Source of the DNA: a virus
IMG/VR virus record: IMGVR_UViG_3300010350_001134
Location: 1-37,885 of that record
Direction: 5' to 3' (one strand)
DNA length: 37,885 bases
The notes below the pieces were generated by a model, which saw nothing but the letters and a program-made list of their open reading frames with translations, made no database searches and was not told the origin of the DNA. Each line of letters opens with the position of its first letter. Within the stretch, counting starts at the first letter, position 1. Shown piece after piece: positions 3,901 through 35,887 of this stretch. The position numbers were made by a program, and so were the translations under genes.

Positions 3901-3983
3901 CGTGGGTTCGTATAGTTGGTTGCGTATGCTTAGTACGTCGGCCTTTCAAGCCGGAAACACGGGTTCGACCCCCGTACTCACGA
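3901..3983 (+). tRNA. tRNA-Glu-like (anticodon TTC) with a 21-nt D-loop
   Basis: Acceptor cgtgggt/actcacg. D-stem cgta/tacg encloses tagttggttgcgtatgcttag. Anticodon stem tcggc/gccgg with loop cuUUCaa. T-arm acggg-ttcgacc-cccgt. Confidence 0.5.
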
Positions 3984-4082
3984 CTAAATCCACCTGGCGT
4001 ATTCCTGAATGGTCCTGCCAGATCAGTAGGGGGTATATGGGTGGTCTCTAAAGAAATCCTGGCAGGGAGATCTACGGGGTTA

Positions 4083-4152
4083 ACTTCGGTCGTCTAGTGG
4101 CCTAGGACTCCGGCACCAGCCGGAAACATGGGTTCGAATCCCATCCGTCGGG
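4083..4152 (+). pseudogene. degenerate tRNA-Glu-related element. D-arm and T-arm are conserved. The anticodon region is shortened and the acceptor strands do not pair.
   Basis: cgtctagtggcctaggac and atggg-ttcgaat-cccat resemble the tRNA-Glu at 2498. No 5-bp anticodon stem with a 7-nt loop can be drawn. Followed by 'gcaaat'. Confidence 0.3.
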
Positions 4153-4183
4153 CAAATTGAGGGATAAATAAAATAAAAGTACT

Positions 4184-4561
4184 ATGGTTTTTGAAATCCT
4201 CGAATATGAGGCAACCCCTAAAACCCCTCATGTTTATTTTAATGGCAATAAGGGAATTTTGAATATCGAAGGAAGATGTATCCCAGAAGATGCTTCTAAA
4301 TTTTTTGAAGAACTACATTCTTTCTTTGATAGGTATCGAAAATCCCCAAATTATCTCTTAAAGATGTCTGTATACTTAGAATATTTTAATACAGCATCTG
4401 CAAGAGAATTGATGAAACTTTTTAAAAGATTAGAAGAGTTTCCATCTGAAATAGCATGGTATTATGATAAAGGCGATATTGACATGCTTGAAGCGGGAAC
4501 TGATTTTTATGAAATTCTCCAAGGTAAAGTCCCATTATTTCTTCTTGAAAAAGAAAAATAA
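4184..4561 (+). CDS. DUF1987 (SiaC-like) family protein, paralogue of 3497..3853
   Basis: Shared motifs IPEDASKFF, YLEYFNTASARELMKL, AWYYDKGDIDMLEAGTDF. Confidence 0.5.
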   Translation: MVFEILEYEATPKTPHVYFNGNKGILNIEGRCIPEDASKFFEELHSFFDRYRKSPNYLLKMSVYLEYFNTASARELMKLFKRLEEFPSEIAWYYDKGDIDMLEAGTDFYEILQGKVPLFLLEKEK

Positions 4562-4606
4562 TTTAACGGGAATTTAACAGAAAACATTTTTATTCAATCA
4601 GATCTT

Positions 4607-4618
4607 TTTGTATATTTG
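4607..4618 (+). promoter_or_regulatory. -7 promoter box TTTGTATATTTG
   Basis: Exact consensus copy, about 50 nt upstream of hairpin-motif copy h and the GC-rich RNA island. Confidence 0.5.
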
Positions 4619-4666
4619 TTCTATTATTACAAATAAACGATCTTTCATATTTTGATTTTCCAATCC

Positions 4667-4689
4667 GTAGTAAGCTAAGGGATACTTCG
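4667..4689 (+). repeat. conserved hairpin motif, copy h (gtagtaagctaagggatacttcg)
   Basis: Stem AGTA/TACT flanked by gt and tcg. Lies at the 5' edge of the GC-rich island. Confidence 0.6.
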
Positions 4690-5410
4690 AACTATAACGG
4701 TCCTAAGGTAGTCCCGGGACAGCGATGTCTCCACGAATGGCAAATGAGAGTTATCCTGCGGGGTGCTCTTCATCTCTCGTAGATGTAATGCCAGTCCAAT
4801 GCTGAATAATATGCTCGAAAGAGCGAGGGCTGGGGTTAAAAGCCAGGCAACTGGTGCCCTAAAAAATTCAGTAATGACGGCCACCCAACGGGGATTGCAA
4901 AATCCCCCAGATAACACCCTTGCAAGGATTCTCGGATTAATTTATACGCCCCGTCCCACCGGCTACAAGAAAGGATGGCTCTATCATAATAGTGATCATA
5001 AAGGGTAGATGCGCGGTGAAAGTCCGCGATGGGGTAGCCCTAAGGATACTCCTTCAGAAGGAGGTCCGAAGATGCCTGCCGACCAGAGCATGAGATGGTC
5101 CTCACCTATGAGTAAATAGGGGTTTTTTGCGTTCTCATTTTATCCTAAGAAAATGAGGGTACCGCTTCCACGGCGTGATAGGGGTCTGGCCACGAGACAG
5201 ATGCGGTGGTAGGGTTTTTACGTTTCTGATTTTTCAGCTTGGGGATTTTAAACCTTTCTCCTAAACAAAATCGGTGTACTGCAAGGTTCCGGCATATTGG
5301 ACCTTTCGGCTAGCTTCAGCCAATGTAGGAATGGCATCCGTGAGCAAGAGCAACCAGCGCAAGGTTCTCGGAGGGGAAGTTTAATCTTCCCCTTTTCTTT
5401 TTTATCGTTC

Positions 5411-5424
5411 TTTGAATATTTGTT
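5411..5424 (+). promoter_or_regulatory. -7-like promoter box TTTGAATATTTG upstream of the endonuclease gene
   Basis: One mismatch to the recurring motif. Lies 38 nt upstream of ATG 5462. Confidence 0.35.
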
Positions 5425-5461
5425 ATAATCTAGGGCGTTTGCGAAGATATATAAATTAAAA

Positions 5462-6091
5462 ATGTATATTTGCAAATGCGGGAAAGAGTTTAGAAAACAA
5501 AATTCTTTAAATGCCCATTTTTCTCATTGTTTAATTCATAGAAATGGAAAAATTCCTATAAATCGTTTTAAGGGAAGGGAAAATTGGAATAAGGGGCTTA
5601 AAAAAGAAACTGATGAAAGAGTTCAAAAATATTCGAAATCATTAAAAGACTCTTTAAATAGTGGAAAGGCTATCCCGAGTTTTTTTGGGAAACACCATTC
5701 AAATAAAACCAAAGAAAAGCTTAGTTTAATTCAGAGCACTTCTCATAAAGGGGGATATTGCAAATGGATTCCATACCAAAAGGAGGATAAAATAATTTAT
5801 CTTCAAGGATCTTGGGAATTTAAATATGCCCAATATTTGGACTCATTAAATTTGAAATGGATTAAACCCGGGCACGGAGATTTAAAATATTCTTTTTTCT
5901 GGATGGATGACTCGGGGATTAAAAGAATTTATACCCCAGATTTTTATATCATAGATTATAACCAATATATTGAAATAAAAGGATATTGGAGAGAAAATGA
6001 TAGAATTAAAATGAAAAAAGTTCTTGAACAAAATAAAATATCTCTTCAAATTCTTGAAAAGAAAGATTTAAAAAATCTTAATTTATTGTAA
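5462..6091 (+). CDS. homing-endonuclease-like Zn-finger / PD-(D/E)xK protein, paralogue of 2815..3417
   Basis: N-terminus CKCGKEFRKQNSLNAHFSHCLIHRNGK is near-identical to 2815. C-terminus YTPDFYIIDYNQYIEIKGYW carries D...ExK. Abuts tRNA-Leu(CAA). Confidence 0.55.
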   Translation: MYICKCGKEFRKQNSLNAHFSHCLIHRNGKIPINRFKGRENWNKGLKKETDERVQKYSKSLKDSLNSGKAIPSFFGKHHSNKTKEKLSLIQSTSHKGGYCKWIPYQKEDKIIYLQGSWEFKYAQYLDSLNLKWIKPGHGDLKYSFFWMDDSGIKRIYTPDFYIIDYNQYIEIKGYWRENDRIKMKKVLEQNKISLQILEKKDLKNLNLL

Positions 6092-6093
6092 TC

Positions 6094-6180
6094 GCCCTCG
6101 TGATGGAAATGGGTAGACATACCAACCTCAAAAGTTGGTGCTTATAAAATAGCGTGTGGGCTCGAGTCCCACCGAGGGCA
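6094..6180 (+). tRNA. tRNA-Leu (anticodon CAA), type II
   Basis: Acceptor gccctcg/cgagggc is perfect. Anticodon stem ccaac/gttgg with loop cuCAAaa. 18-nt variable arm. T-arm gtggg-ctcgagt-cccac. Confidence 0.8.
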
Positions 6181-34690: not shown

Positions 34691-35181
34691 AAGCCAAATT
34701 CATATATGAATCATTAAATTTTGAAAGAGGTGCGGACCCTAAAGATTCTATGGGGGTTGGTATTAGATATAGAAGAAGTTTCAAAACGGTACGAGAATGT
34801 GCTAATTTTTTCCTGAATCATATTGATAAACTTTCAAATGGAAGATTTAATAATATCGATGAATTAAAAAGAGCTTTTAGAGACGACGAATATAGAAATC
34901 AAATTATTCAAGGATCAGGAGAAGAAGATGAAAATCCTAATAGCACACTTCATTCCTTTGCTATTAATAGGAGTCCTCTGCGAATGTGTAAAGATTATCT
35001 AGAGGGATTTAAGAAAACAGATAATAAAGGAAATGTTCTTTCTAGAAAATATTCCCCAGTTTATATCGAGGAATGGGGAAGTACTTTTGATGAAAATATT
35101 GCAAAATTAGCTTGTTTAAAAGAATTCCATCAAGAGATCCAAAAAATATTAGGATTGAGAACGGACGATTCCTTGATATAG
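34687..35181 (+). CDS. NFERG-motif family protein (member 4)
   Basis: ...SLNFERGADPKDSMGVG. Ends with TAG. Confidence 0.45.
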   Translation: MKAKFIYESLNFERGADPKDSMGVGIRYRRSFKTVRECANFFLNHIDKLSNGRFNNIDELKRAFRDDEYRNQIIQGSGEEDENPNSTLHSFAINRSPLRMCKDYLEGFKKTDNKGNVLSRKYSPVYIEEWGSTFDENIAKLACLKEFHQEIQKILGLRTDDSLI

Positions 35182-35232
35182 GAATCCAATCTTAACGATT
35201 TTTTAACGGAAAATATTTTTTTATAAGAAAAC

Positions 35233-35250
35233 TTTTAGTATATTTGCACC
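35233..35250 (+). promoter_or_regulatory. -7 promoter box TTTTAGTATATTTGCACC
   Basis: Recurring motif. Hairpin-motif copy c begins 14 nt downstream. Confidence 0.45.
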
Positions 35251-35263
35251 ATAAAAAGATACC

Positions 35264-35286
35264 GTGGTAAGATAAGAGTTACTTCG
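35264..35286 (+). repeat. conserved hairpin motif, copy c (gtggtaagataagagttacttcg), followed by tccgatcc
   Basis: Same motif. Promoter-proximal, probably the 5' end of a small transcript. Confidence 0.55.
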
Positions 35287-35360
35287 TCCGATCCTATAAA
35301 TCAGAAACTGAAACAACCTCTTAACAATTTTCCCGGAATTTTTTACAATAAGTTAAAACT

Positions 35361-35375
35361 TTTTTGATATTTGCA
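35361..35375 (+). promoter_or_regulatory. -7 promoter box TTTTGATATTTGCAG
   Basis: Recurring motif upstream of the second tRNA array. Confidence 0.4.
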
Positions 35376-35542
35376 GTAATATATAGAGAAACTTAATAAA
35401 TACTACTTTCAATGAAAAGGCGTGGAAATATGGATAATTTCGTGAATTGGTTTGGCTTTAATAGAGCAGCCGATAAAGACGGAGGAAGTTGCCCGCTTGA
35501 AAGAGTAGAGTAAAACTAGAAATAGTTAGGACTTTATATAAA

Positions 35543-35576
35543 GCGGGAACTTCAAAAGAGATTCCCGCTTTTTTTG
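35543..35576 (+). terminator. rho-independent terminator (gcgggaa...ttcccgc + T7)
   Basis: Perfect 7-bp stem plus T-run. Confidence 0.65.
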
Positions 35577-35590
35577 TTCTTTAAAATATT

Positions 35591-35663
35591 TGGTGAGGTA
35601 GCTCAGTTGGTAGAGCAATGGACTGAAAATCCATGTGTCGGCAGTTCGATCCTGCCTCTTACC
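35591..35663 (+). tRNA. tRNA-Phe (anticodon GAA)
   Basis: Acceptor ggtgagg/tcttacc (G-U pairs). D-arm tagctcagttggtagagc. Anticodon stem atgga/tccat with loop cuGAAaa. T-arm ggcag-ttcgatc-ctgcc. Confidence 0.85.
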
Positions 35664-35671
35664 ACACCAAT

Positions 35672-35754
35672 TGGGGGAGTAGCTCAGATGGAGCAATCGC
35701 GTAGAGCGCTGGACTGAAAATCCAGAGGTCATCGGTTCGATCCCGATCTCCCCC
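35672..35754 (+). tRNA. tRNA-Phe-like (anticodon GAA) with an 18-nt D-loop (~10-nt insertion agcaatcgcg)
   Basis: Acceptor gggggag/ctccccc is perfect. D-stem gctc/gagc encloses agatggagcaatcgcgta. Anticodon stem ctgga/tccag with loop cuGAAaa. T-arm atcgg-ttcgatc-ccgat. Confidence 0.55.
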
Positions 35755-35800
35755 ACAACACCGATCTGAAAAGATCATGTTCTTTGACATGCTGGCAATT

Positions 35801-35887
35801 CCTCCCGTAGCTCTAATTGGCGAGCCTTCGGGCGAGAGCTTCCGCCTTTTAAGCGGAAGGTTCTGGGTTCGAGTCCCAGCGGGAGGA
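35801..35887 (+). tRNA. tRNA-Lys-like (anticodon TTT) with a 22-nt D-loop (insertion cgagccttcgggcg)
   Basis: Acceptor cctcccg/cgggagg is perfect. D-stem gctc/gagc. Anticodon stem tccgc/gcgga with loop cuUUUaa. T-arm ctggg-ttcgagt-cccag. Confidence 0.55.

What the first reader, a model, noticed from the sequence alone, without database searches (positions are those of the whole stretch)
3901..35887. Three tRNAs with 18-22-nt D-loops, each paired with a normal isoacceptor nearby
tRNA-Glu-like(UUC) 3901-3983, tRNA-Phe-like(GAA) 35672-35754 and tRNA-Lys-like(UUU) 35801-35887 keep perfect acceptor, anticodon and T arms. Each carries a 10-14-nt insertion inside the D-loop (agcaatcgcg, cgagccttcgggcg containing a gcc-UUCG-ggc mini-hairpin, ttgcgtatgcttag). 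Canonical tRNA-Glu (2498) and tRNA-Phe (35591) lie alongside. The insertions are too short for known introns and sit at a non-canonical position. They could alter recognition by modification enzymes, synthetases or host anticodon nucleases. They could also mark these as decoys or sponges.
Basis: seen in the sequence. Interest (0 to 1): 0.6.

Follow-up and report, generated by a model that had tools for sequence, protein, structure and literature searches.

The report
Phage tRNAs with a D-loop mini-hairpin
Three tRNA genes in this large phage carry a small extra hairpin inside the D-loop; the same add-on recurs in many uncultivated phages, mostly in tRNA-Lys(UUU), and I found no paper describing it, so it may be a way of keeping spare tRNAs out of reach of host tRNA-cutting defences.

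Summary
Glu(UUC) 3901-3982, Phe(GAA) 35673-35754 and Lys(UUU) 35801-35886 are perfect 21/21-bp cloverleaves with D-loops of 19, 18 and 22 nt. All other window tRNAs have 7-10 nt.

The extra bases follow G18G19 and form a mini-hairpin. This is not a local oddity:
- Pattern scans of viral and metagenome contigs recovered about 59 distinct long D-loops of this kind.
- Hairpin stems covary. Of the 59, 38 carry a GNRA or UNCG tetraloop closed by 2 bp, against 4.8 expected.
- Among tRNAs sharing the same D-arm signature, Lys(UUU) is 39/56 of the long forms and 4/70 of the normal ones. Gly(UCC), Phe, Glu and Gln also recur.
- All 44 distinct long Lys keep A73 and the loop CUUUUAA.
- A canonical twin with the same anticodon usually sits in the same phage. 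This holds for all three here; the Lys twin lies just past the window end.
- In 596 Gb of cellular genomes almost all pattern matches are assembly artefacts.

They are therefore functional, selected tRNAs, not introns, pseudogenes or chance. The function is inferred only: most likely structural camouflage against host tRNA-targeting nucleases. I found no published description.

The parts
3901..3983 (+). tRNA-Glu(UUC) with a 19-nt D-loop. After G18G19: UU-GC-GUAU-GC-UUA, a minimal 2-bp hairpin. Keeps U11:A24, U13-G22 and a 4-nt variable loop. Discriminator A73, no encoded CCA.
   Evidence: 21/21 bp. Identical in L001, L007, L216 and L224. L213 has the loop variant GC-AUAU-GC. Related Glu-L genes in L037 and L173.
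3918..3928 (+). D-loop insert of Glu-L (ttgcgtatgct), placed in the beta variable region after G19.
   Evidence: Read directly. The same insert string occurs in an unrelated Lys(UUU) tRNA (L034).
35673..35755 (+). tRNA-Phe(GAA) with an 18-nt D-loop. Best model: AGAUG-[GA-GCAA-UC]-GCGUA, a 2-bp stem closing a GCAA tetraloop. A73. Lies 8 nt downstream of the canonical Phe.
   Evidence: The stem covaries across relatives while GCAA is kept: GA/UC (window), GU/AC (L173), GUA/UAC (L021), GUU/AAU (L114). The Phe then Phe-L tandem is conserved in L114 and L173.
35801..35887 (+). tRNA-Lys(UUU) with a 22-nt D-loop. GCC-UUCG-GGC hairpin, possibly extended by tandem G-A pairs. Anticodon loop CUUUUAA, A73.
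   Evidence: Orthologues carry GCC-GUAA-GGC (L009-L011, L015, L016) and GC-GCAA-GC (L114) with completely different acceptor, anticodon and T stems. CM R1 scores it 68.9 bits.
35821..35834 (+). Mini-hairpin GAGCC-UUCG-GGCGA inside the Lys D-loop.
2498..2572 (+). Canonical twin tRNA-Glu(UUC), D-loop 10 nt.
35592..35664 (+). Canonical twin tRNA-Phe(GAA), D-loop 8 nt.

Best explanation
These are functional elongator tRNAs of a large T4-like phage. Each carries a small structured hairpin as an add-on in the beta variable region of the D-loop, directly after G18G19, the site of the optional nucleotides 20a and 20b.

**What I take as shown**
- The hairpin is kept in the mature tRNA and projects from the side of the elbow (the 'variable pocket' formed by positions 16, 17, 20, 59 and 60).
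- The acceptor end, anticodon arm, T-arm and the G18/G19 elbow contacts are untouched.
- The phage carries these as second copies next to canonical tRNAs with the same anticodon.

**Most likely function (inferred, not shown)**
- The bulky hairpin stops host proteins that read the D-loop and hinge of the tRNA from binding. Defence nucleases are the main candidates. tRNA-Lys(UUU) is the recurrent target of PrrC, PARIS AriB and a bacterial Schlafen.
- The tRNA can still be charged and used by the ribosome.
- The phage therefore keeps a nuclease-proof spare of the most attacked tRNAs.
For: **Real, selected tRNAs**
- Perfect cloverleaves, with none in shuffled or minus-strand controls.
- Identical copies in many independent contigs.
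- In a gapless alignment of 13 Lys-L, every acceptor and anticodon-stem pair and 4 of 5 T-stem pairs show compensatory changes; the 4 D-stem pairs are invariant.
- A73 and CUUUUAA are invariant in 44 distinct Lys-L; A73 in 11 Phe-L.
- Glu-L keeps U11:A24, U13-G22 and a 4-nt variable loop.

**Structured hairpin**
- The hairpin helix is 94.9% paired, with 2 of 3 pairs changed on both sides, in an unfitted alignment.
- It is 92.8% paired with 3 of 3 pairs compensatory in the CM alignment.
- 38/59 distinct long D-loops have a GNRA or UNCG tetraloop closed by 2 bp, against 4.8 expected and a maximum of 12 in 1000 shuffles.
- The window Lys lineage swaps UUCG, GUAA and GCAA on a kept stem.

**Virus-associated**
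- About 20 of 27 IMG/VR pattern hits are genuine.
- Only about 3 of 47 hits in 596 Gb of genomes are genuine; the rest are duplications or N-gaps.

**Isoacceptor bias**
- Lys(UUU) is 39/56 of long forms and 4/70 of normal tRNAs with the same D-arm signature (odds ratio 38, p = 1e-14).
- Gly(UCC) dominates the second D-arm class.

**Twins**
- A canonical tRNA with the same anticodon is in the same partial locus for 23/44 Lys-L, 9/11 Phe-L, 2/2 Gln-L and 2/3 Glu-L.

**Arms-race signature**
- The Lys-L gene is a sharply bounded divergent allele (80% identity) between the window and L011, inside 100% identical flanks.
- An 85%-identity relative (L014) has a normal-length Lys(UUU) at the same array position and no Phe-L.

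**Literature**
- AriB's second monomer contacts D-loop U16-U17 of tRNA-Lys(UUU), and U16C impairs cleavage (PMC12409363).
- The bacterial Schlafen RorSlfn5 cleaves Lys(UUU) most, and also Met and Phe (PMC13056530).
- Phage tRNAs are known to resist nucleases through sequence changes (PMC12445682).

**Context**
- The window also carries an NAD+ salvage gene set, which I recall as a described phage counter-defence.
Against: - No expression, processing, charging or cleavage data exist for any of these tRNAs.
- PrrC and colicin-type nucleases recognise mainly the anticodon stem-loop, so a D-loop hairpin would not obviously protect against them.
- Phe(GAA) and Gly(UCC) are not classic anticodon-nuclease targets.
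- The Glu and many Lys hairpins have only an invariant 2-bp GC/GC stem, so their structure rests on analogy with the longer covarying stems.
- Both collection scans were ascertained through fixed D-stem patterns, so the isoacceptor spectrum is incomplete.
- No 3D model was made; compatibility with synthetase, EF-Tu and ribosome is assumed by analogy with the long variable arms of class II tRNAs.
Confidence: 0.4

Rival explanations
1. Tolerated expansion segment. The beta region of the D-loop is a permissive site. Small stable hairpins arose by slippage or duplication and persist because they are harmless as long as they fold on themselves. They have no dedicated function.
For: - The insertion site is the one place in the D-loop where length normally varies (20a, 20b; established tRNA numbering).
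- Many stems are only 2 bp and invariant.
- The window Lys D-loop contains an internal repeat GCGAG...GCGAG that suggests origin by duplication.
- The hairpin is present or absent among close relatives.
Against: - It recurs independently in at least 8 isoacceptors and two D-arm classes, always at the same site.
- It is strongly biased to Lys(UUU) and Gly(UCC).
- It is almost absent from cellular genomes.
- Extra-stable tetraloops are maintained and stems covary.
- Normal-plus-hairpin twin pairs are conserved across diverged phages.
Confidence: 0.2
2. Self-marking handle. The hairpin is read by a phage-encoded factor such as a modification enzyme, synthetase, repair ligase or RNA-binding protein. 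Alternatively it lets phage tRNAs escape a phage-induced attack on host tRNAs. Either way it distinguishes phage tRNAs from host tRNAs.
For: - Twin organisation suggests functional differentiation.
- GNRA loops are classic protein or RNA docking elements.
- The window encodes RNA-related proteins: TROVE/Ro60-like, PTH2 and an MVP-like protein.
- One unrelated carrier has an RtcB-like ORF, judged by reading the sequence only, next to its array (L151).
Against: - No protein family other than an ORF cluster with HNH-endonuclease-like motifs, judged by reading the sequence only (12/58), recurs in the flanks of 58 non-redundant hairpin-tRNA loci.
- Loop sequences are not conserved (GAAA, GCAA, GUAA, UUCG, GUAU, AUUA and others), which argues against a sequence-specific reader.
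Confidence: 0.15
3. Decoy or sponge. The hairpin tRNAs are not used in translation. They bind and titrate a host tRNA-targeting enzyme, or serve a non-ribosomal pathway, while the canonical twin does the decoding.
For: - Twin organisation.
- The window also holds clearly non-decoding tRNA-like elements, for example 4083-4152, which has a Glu-type D-arm and T-arm but a 4-nt loop in place of the anticodon loop.
- There is precedent for non-proteinogenic tRNA twins (the Staphylococcus tRNA-Gly used for cell-wall synthesis; own knowledge).
Against: - Discriminator, anticodon loop, T-loop and G18G19 are fully conserved, and all four other arms show compensatory evolution. That is what translation demands.
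- No relaxation of EF-Tu or ribosome-relevant features was seen.
Confidence: 0.12
4. Mini-intron removed after transcription, either an archaeal-type BHB intron or an unknown bacterial activity. The mature tRNA would then be canonical.
For: - Removing the insert restores a normal 8-10-nt D-loop in every case.
- Archaeal and red-algal tRNAs do carry short introns at D-loop positions (PMC4090602 listed; own knowledge).
Against: - The junctions show no bulge-helix-bulge geometry: a 9-nt 5' single strand, a 3-nt 3' strand and no flanking second helix.
- Phage genes are bacterial in type: TonB-dependent receptor, T4 gp30.3.
- No EndA- or RtcB-like ORF appears among the 40 window ORFs scanned.
- 8-14 nt cannot self-splice.
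- Selection for extra-stable tetraloops is unexpected for a BHB intron.
Confidence: 0.05
5. Pseudogenes, chance matches or assembly artefacts.
For: - ARAGORN and Rfam handle them badly.
- Most long-D-loop matches in cellular genome assemblies are indeed artefacts.
Against: - The controls give zero such objects.
- Identical sequences occur in many independent samples.
- Compensatory substitutions occur throughout.
- The hairpin inserts are not duplications of flanking D-loop sequence, unlike the artefacts.
Confidence: 0.02

Closest known systems
Phage-encoded nuclease-resistant tRNAs (T5 tRNA-Lys(UUU) against PARIS AriB; phage tRNA-Thr(UGU) against P2-OLD; phage tRNA-Tyr against retron Eco7 PtuAB)
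   Same: - Phage-borne copies of exactly the isoacceptors that defence nucleases attack, with Lys(UUU) foremost.
- Identity elements are kept.
- They differ from host tRNAs at sites the nuclease reads. AriB reads the D-loop (PMC12409363, PMC12445682, PMC11555353).
   Different: - The known cases resist through point substitutions in the anticodon stem-loop or D-loop, or through a shortened anticodon stem.
- Here a whole structured hairpin is added, and resistance has not been tested.
- The hairpin forms co-exist with a canonical phage copy.
Class II tRNAs (Leu, Ser, bacterial Tyr) with a long variable arm
   Same: - An extra stem-loop projecting from the tRNA core that synthetases, EF-Tu and the ribosome tolerate.
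- The same phage also gives Asp and Asn such an arm (36113-36200, 37028-37115).
   Different: - The extra arm sits in the D-loop beta region, not between positions 44 and 48.
- Stems are shorter (2-4 bp).
- The identities are class I (Lys, Phe, Glu, Gln, Gly).
tRNA-Sec and allo-tRNAs (non-canonical D-arms)
   Same: A D-arm that departs from the 4-bp stem and 7-11-nt loop rule and is missed by standard tRNA finders (PMC7609411).
   Different: - tRNA-Sec lengthens the D-stem to 6 bp and shrinks the loop to 4 nt, and changes the acceptor/T geometry.
- Here the stem and the G18G19 part of the loop are canonical and a separate hairpin is nested in the loop.
Archaeal and Cyanidioschyzon tRNA genes with short introns at non-canonical positions, including the D-loop
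   Same: A short (11 nt or more) insertion in the D-loop of a tRNA gene whose removal gives a canonical tRNA.
   Different: - No BHB motif.
- Bacterial-virus context.
- The insert folds into a stable tetraloop hairpin that covaries as a structure in its own right.
Bacterial Y RNA (YrlA) tRNA-like modules bound by Ro60/Rsr
   Same: tRNA-like RNA encoded near a TROVE/Ro60-like gene (11587-13287).
   Different: - YrlA replaces the anticodon arm with a Ro-binding helix.
- These three keep perfect anticodon arms and identity elements.
- The Rfam YrlA hit in the window is 22 bits against a threshold of 69.

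Membership tests
Canonical elongator tRNA (Rfam RF00005) | 7-bp acceptor stem, 5-bp anticodon stem with a 7-nt loop (U33, purine 37), 5-bp T-stem with a GTTCRANYC loop, 4-5-nt variable loop | tested here: met
   All three score 21/21 pairs. Loops are CUUUCAA, CUGAAAA and CUUUUAA. T-loops are UUCGACC, UUCGAUC and UUCGAGU.
Canonical elongator tRNA (Rfam RF00005) | D-loop of 7-11 nt containing G18G19 | tested here: not met
   GG is present, but the loops are 19, 18 and 22 nt against 7-10 nt in the 18 other window tRNAs that the scanner listed.
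Canonical elongator tRNA (Rfam RF00005) | Full-length match above the Rfam gathering score, and detection by a standard tRNA finder | tested here: inconclusive
   Rfam gives 36.1, 32.4 and 32.1 bits (threshold 29), but the matches start at 35690, 3914 and 35825, after the insert. ARAGORN misses two and miscalls one.
Canonical elongator tRNA (Rfam RF00005) | Aminoacylation identity elements: Lys U35/A73; Phe GAA/A73; Glu U11:A24, U13-G22, missing 47 | tested here: met
   A73 in all three. It is invariant in 44 Lys-L and 11 Phe-L. Actual charging is not testable here.
BHB-intron tRNA genes (archaea and eukaryote nuclei) | Bulge-helix-bulge (or HBh') motif at both exon-intron junctions | tested here: not met
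   The hairpin is flanked by a 6-9-nt 5' strand and a 2-3-nt 3' strand inside the D-loop. There is no 4-bp central helix between two 3-nt bulges.
BHB-intron tRNA genes (archaea and eukaryote nuclei) | Splicing endonuclease (EndA) and ligase available | tested here: inconclusive
   None found among 40 window ORFs scanned with Pfam. The host genome is unknown.
Group I / group II intron-containing bacterial tRNA genes | Intron of hundreds of nt with a catalytic core, usually in the anticodon loop | tested here: not met
   The inserts are 8-14 nt and lie in the D-loop. There is no intron family hit in Rfam.
Phage nuclease-evading tRNAs | Phage-encoded, with the same anticodon as a host tRNA targeted by a defence nuclease | tested here: met
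   Lys(UUU) is the dominant carrier. Its targeting by PARIS and Schlafen is documented in the papers read; PrrC targeting is known from the RloC paper's abstract (PMC2610378, listed) and from my own knowledge.
Phage nuclease-evading tRNAs | Demonstrated resistance to cleavage and rescue of infection | not testable with these tools
   Needs in vitro cleavage and plaque assays.
Y RNA / YrlA tRNA-like RNAs | Ro-binding helix in place of the anticodon arm; match to RF02553 | tested here: not met
   Anticodon arms are intact. The only YrlA hit is 22.1 bits against a threshold of 69 and lies over the Asn tRNAs.

The most novel reading that the evidence does not exclude
Phages have evolved a previously undescribed structural class of tRNA, 'D-hairpin tRNAs', together with sister forms that carry a hairpin in the variable loop of class I identities. 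A bolt-on GNRA or UNCG mini-hairpin at the variable pocket makes a spare copy of the most attacked isoacceptors (Lys UUU, Gly UCC, Glu UUC, Gln UUG, Phe) invisible to host tRNA-targeting immune nucleases or modifying toxins, while it stays fully active in translation. This would be a general, structure-based counter-defence, distinct from the point-mutation escape known so far.
Probability: 0.35. Interest if true: 0.85.

Novelty: new variant of a known kind. Interest (0 to 1): 0.68.

Why it matters
**If retained in mature tRNA**
- These would be the first tRNAs known to carry an extra helix in the D-loop. That extends the accepted limits of the cloverleaf.
- It exposes a blind spot in tRNA annotation. 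ARAGORN and Rfam miss or truncate them, so phage tRNA complements are under-counted.

**Link to phage-host conflict**
- The strong bias to tRNA-Lys(UUU), the twin arrangement and the allele swapping tie them to the active field of tRNA-targeting antiphage defence (PrrC, PARIS, retrons, OLD, Schlafen, Cas13, Cas12a3).
- They give a directly testable hypothesis: add or remove the hairpin and assay cleavage and charging.

**Possible uses**
- They could supply nuclease-resistant or orthogonal tRNA scaffolds for synthetic biology.

Tried and rejected
1. **Close cultured relatives.** blastn of the tRNA array against INPHARED found only generic tRNA matches. Two Lys-L queries hit only normal 71-73-nt tRNA-Lys. 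Two D-arm-with-hairpin queries gave no match. No cultured phage with such a tRNA was found, though sensitivity is limited for 32-34-nt queries.
2. **Cellular genomes.** The pattern scan gave 47 hits. Nearly all are duplicated D-loop halves or NN scaffold gaps, so I rejected them as biology. The exceptions are L060, L065 (probably binned phage contigs) and L075.
3. **Literature.** Six full-text searches and seven papers opened. None describes hairpin-expanded D-loops.
4. **Minimum-free-energy folding.** Not informative for Glu-L (z = -0.9). For Lys-L and Phe-L it prefers alternative pairings of GCUC with an inner GAGC. I rejected these on comparative grounds: the Phe alternative is absent in L173 and L114, and the tetraloop swaps in the Lys lineage only make sense for the hairpin.
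5. **My first automatic hairpin caller.** It mis-paired flanking U runs with GAAA loops. I replaced it with an explicit test for a closed tetraloop.
6. **Conserved partner gene.** All-against-all blastp of 432 ORFs from 58 loci found only one ORF family with HNH-endonuclease-like motifs (judged by reading the sequence, not scanned against Pfam) recurring, in 12 loci. No dedicated synthetase or modifier turned up.
7. **EpmA/LysRS-like partner** for the lysine-2,3-aminomutase-like radical SAM gene next to the array. None found.
8. **Promoter and terminator scans.** Nothing above the shuffle expectation.

Full report
**1. Is it there?**

Reading the sequence and running a purpose-written cloverleaf scanner confirm three tRNA genes on the + strand with perfect arms (21 of 21 pairs, G-U allowed) and oversized D-loops.
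- Glu(UUC) 3901-3982: 19 nt.
- Phe(GAA) 35673-35754: 18 nt.
- Lys(UUU) 35801-35886: 22 nt.

The other window tRNAs that the scanner listed all have D-loops of 7-10 nt. No such object appears on the minus strand or in 30 composition-preserving block shuffles.

Standard tools fail on them.
- ARAGORN misses Glu and Lys and calls the Phe gene 'Leu(tag)'.
- The Rfam tRNA model gives 32-36-bit local matches that begin after the insert.

Phe starts one base later than stated.

**2. Where the extra bases sit**

In all three the loop starts normally (AGUUGG, AGAUGG, UAAUUGG) and ends with the usual A21. The extra bases follow G18G19. This is the beta variable region, where ordinary tRNAs carry the optional nucleotides 20a and 20b (standard tRNA numbering; own knowledge).
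- Lys: GCC-UUCG-GGC.
- Glu: GC-GUAU-GC.
- Phe: best read as GA-GCAA-UC followed by GCGUA.

**3. Relatives of this phage**

I fetched relatives through two neighbouring proteins: the MVP-like ORF 6403-8949 and the radical SAM ORF 32742-33914.
- Near-identical contigs carry identical Glu-L and Phe-L genes.
- Five contigs with 98-100% identical flanks carry a very different Lys-L. The acceptor is GCACCUG instead of CCUCCCG, and the anticodon and T stems also differ. The 22-nt D-loop is the same except that the tetraloop is GUAA instead of UUCG.
- The alignment shows that divergence starts and stops exactly at the gene. This is a bounded allele replacement.
- A more distant relative (L114) keeps the same gene order: Phe, Phe-L, Lys-L, Gly and so on. 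Its Lys hairpin is GC-GCAA-GC and its Phe hairpin is GUU-GCAA-AAU.
- L173 has Gln plus Gln-L, Glu-L, and Phe plus Phe-L.
- L008 has Gln-L.
- L014 (85% protein identity) has a normal-length Lys(UUU) at the position of Lys-L and no Phe-L.
- L012 is the same phage, extending past the window end. It shows a canonical Lys(UUU) about 2.3 kb beyond Lys-L.

All three long forms therefore have a canonical twin with the same anticodon.

**4. It is a widespread class**

I built a pattern that demands the common D-arm (TAGCTCAGNTGG ... TAGAGC), 9-18 extra bases after GG, and a T-loop at the right distance.
- It hit 27 IMG/VR contigs. About 20 are unrelated to the window, with contig sizes from 8 to 411 kb. 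Nearly all are perfect cloverleaves with a hairpin at the same site.
- A second pattern for the GUAU-type D-stem found 29 more viral loci.

In total there are about 59 distinct long D-loops from the first two scans (a few of them not of the hairpin type), plus about 15 from the third. By anticodon:
- 44 distinct Lys(UUU).
- 11 Phe(GAA).
- About 13 Gly(UCC).
- Glu(UUC), Gln(UUG), CAU, His, Thr(UGU) and Gly(GCC) in small numbers.

In 596 Gb of bacterial and archaeal genomes the first pattern gave 47 hits. Almost all are assembly artefacts: a duplicated half D-loop, or NN gaps.
- Exceptions are two MAG contigs that look like phage (L060, L065).
- A further exception is an Acidithiobacillus tRNA array with a different, repeated 17-nt insert (L075).

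No match was found in 50,697 deposited phage genomes at the sensitivity available.

**5. The insert is a selected structure**

Evidence from 13 equal-length Lys-L genes, aligned without gaps:
- The hairpin helix is 94.9% paired.
- Two of its three pairs change on both sides (for example G-C 7, A-U 2, C-G 2, U-A 2).
- Sliding the partner by 1-3 columns drops pairing over the whole structure (all five helices) to 26-49%.

Evidence from a covariance model built from these genes, which aligned 150 tRNAs:
- The hairpin is 92.8% paired across about 50 carriers.
- All three pairs are compensatory. This alignment is fitted to the model, so it leans towards the structure.

Further evidence:
- 38 of 59 distinct long D-loops contain a GNRA or UNCG tetraloop closed by at least 2 bp. 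Shuffled inserts give 4.8 on average and at most 12 in 1000 trials.
- In the Phe-L family the GCAA loop is constant while the stem covaries: GA/UC, GU/AC, GUA/UAC, GUU/AAU.

The Glu hairpin and many Lys hairpins have only an invariant GC/GC stem. Their structure rests on being in register with the longer stems.

**6. They are real tRNAs**

- Across carriers, every acceptor and anticodon-stem pair and 4 of 5 T-stem pairs show compensatory change; the four D-stem pairs never vary.
- All 44 Lys-L keep A73 and CUUUUAA. All 11 Phe-L keep A73.
- Glu-L keeps U11:A24, U13-G22 and a 4-nt variable loop. These are the known GluRS determinants (own knowledge).
- Pseudogenes, chance and artefact are excluded.

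**7. Alternative folds**

Minimum-free-energy folding pairs GCUC of the window Lys with an inner GAGC. That gives a standard 8-nt D-loop and a 15-nt spacer before the anticodon stem. It does something similar for Phe.
- The Phe alternative is absent in L173 and L114.
- For Lys the inner GAGC is conserved in this lineage, so the alternative cannot be dismissed on sequence alone.
- However, it offers no reason for UUCG, GUAA and GCAA to replace one another on a kept C-G closing pair.
- The large AGUUGGUUU... Lys family has no inner GAGC.

I therefore keep the hairpin model.

**8. Not an intron**

- The inserts are 8-14 nt. They have no bulge-helix-bulge geometry, lie in a bacterial-type phage, and cannot self-splice.
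- Phage genes of bacterial type include a TonB-dependent receptor, T4 gp30.3, an NAD salvage set and PTH2.
- No EndA or RtcB was found among the 40 window ORFs scanned.

**9. What it does (inference)**

Three patterns point to conflict with the host rather than to decoding.
- **Isoacceptor bias.** Among tRNAs with the same D-arm signature in the same loci, Lys(UUU) is 39/56 of hairpin forms and 4/70 of normal forms (odds ratio 38, p = 1e-14).
- **Known targets.** Lys(UUU) is the recurrent target of PrrC, PARIS AriB and the bacterial Schlafen RorSlfn5. For AriB, the second monomer is modelled on D-loop U16-U17, and U16C impairs cleavage. Positions 16, 17 and 20 form one pocket (own knowledge).
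- **Twins.** The hairpin form is usually an extra copy beside a canonical one.
- **Turnover.** The locus turns over fast among near-identical phages.

Phage tRNAs that escape nucleases by point changes are established. A bolt-on hairpin would be a structural version of the same strategy.

The weaknesses are these:
- PrrC-type enzymes read only the anticodon arm.
- Phe and Gly(UCC) are not classic targets.
- Nothing here has been tested biochemically.

Rivals are a neutral tolerated expansion, a self-marking handle for a phage factor, a decoy, and an intron.

One further pattern is noted only as a lead. Lys(UUU), Glu(UUC), Gln(UUG) and Gly(UCC) are all xm5U34 (MnmE/MnmG substrate) tRNAs in E. 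coli (own knowledge).

**10. Novelty**

Six full-text searches and seven papers, including a review of non-canonical tRNAs (PMC7609411), gave no description of such tRNAs. The library is incomplete, so prior description cannot be excluded.

I rate this a new variant of a known kind: a tRNA with a new structural module. Interest is fairly high because it is widespread, invisible to standard annotation, and immediately testable.

Noticed in passing
window 36113-36200 and 37028-37115: tRNA-Asp(GUC) and tRNA-Asn(GUU), both class I identities, carry 16-18-nt variable arms that form mini-hairpins (Asp: CAGA-GAAA-UCUG). Each has a normal twin (36845-36917; 37121-37193, only 5 nt downstream). Both long forms are kept in the diverged relative L114 (4180-4263, 2525-2612). 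This looks like the same add-on hairpin idea at a different site.
   Followed up: partly
window 35801-35887 versus L011 3574-3659: The Lys-L gene is about 80% identical between two contigs whose flanks, including the neighbouring Phe, Phe-L and Gly tRNAs, are 100% identical. The window also has a 35-nt spacer after the gene that L011 lacks. This is a sharply bounded allele replacement.
   Followed up: yes
window 4083-4152: A tRNA-like element 100 nt downstream of Glu-L. It has a Glu-type D-arm (GUCU/GGAC), an AAAC variable loop and a good T-arm, but its anticodon stem is capped by a 4-nt loop (ACCA), so there is no anticodon. Rfam tRNA scores it 32.7 bits. It may be a non-decoding tRNA mimic.
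   Followed up: partly
window 58-126, 425-509, 605-725, 730-835, 36000-36100, 36207-36311, 36920-36985, 37362-37436, 37555-37628, 37833-37885: At least ten more elements with a T-arm and often an acceptor-like stem lie between the annotated tRNAs. ARAGORN missed all of them. 730-835 and 36000-36100 are paralogues that are conserved at 77-82% in L014, L112 and L125. 37362-37436 is conserved in L114, L095 and L195. 605-725 is 121 nt long. Their structures were not resolved.
   Followed up: partly
window 10155-10227: A tRNA with anticodon CUA (amber-suppressor type; ARAGORN labels it 'Pyl'). It suggests possible TAG recoding in part of this phage.
   Followed up: no
window 6403-8949 and 11587-13287: A major-vault-protein-like ORF (MVP shoulder and Vault_3 domains, 848 aa) and a TROVE/Ro60-like RNA-binding ORF (566 aa) lie in a phage, next to tRNA arrays. 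Relatives of the MVP-like ORF occur in 8 IMG/VR contigs.
   Followed up: partly
window 18973-19848, 20206-20814, 23429-24664, 28915-29940: A near-complete NAD+ salvage set: NadE, a PncA-like isochorismatase, an NAPRTase-family protein and an NMNAT/NadR-like protein. Also present are PTH2 (26012-26443), a TonB-dependent receptor (26455-28413) and two radical SAM genes. From memory, NAD+ reconstitution is a described phage counter-defence.
   Followed up: no
L075 1623-2313 (Acidithiobacillus ferrivorans DSM 22755 contig168): Four neighbouring tRNAs (CAG, GAG, GAA, UAA anticodons) each have a 25-26-nt D-loop containing nearly the same insert, GCCGGCUG(G)CUGCGACUG. This is a repeated-sequence insertion, different in kind from the phage hairpins.
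   Followed up: no
L210-L234, L026, L175 (viral contigs): In tRNAs with a GUAU-type D-stem the D-loop hairpin is found mainly in Gly(UCC), with about 10 distinct sequences such as AACGGA-GGC-GAAA-GCC-GUA. Together with Lys(UUU), Glu(UUC) and Gln(UUG), these are the xm5U34-modified tRNAs of E. coli. That is a possible clue to the selective agent.
   Followed up: partly
window 37691-37766: A class I tRNA called Ser(CGA) by ARAGORN has the anticodon loop GCCGAAA, with C instead of the near-universal U at position 33. It is conserved in L011 and L012.
   Followed up: no
window 963-1502, 1759-2199, 2815-3417, 5462-6091, 25365-26027: Several ORFs with weak, mostly sub-threshold matches to HNH, NUMOD3 or other endonuclease families (possible homing endonucleases) are interspersed with the tRNA genes. 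An ORF family with HNH-like motifs, judged by reading the sequence only, is the only one that recurs next to hairpin tRNAs in unrelated contigs (12 of 58 loci).
   Followed up: partly
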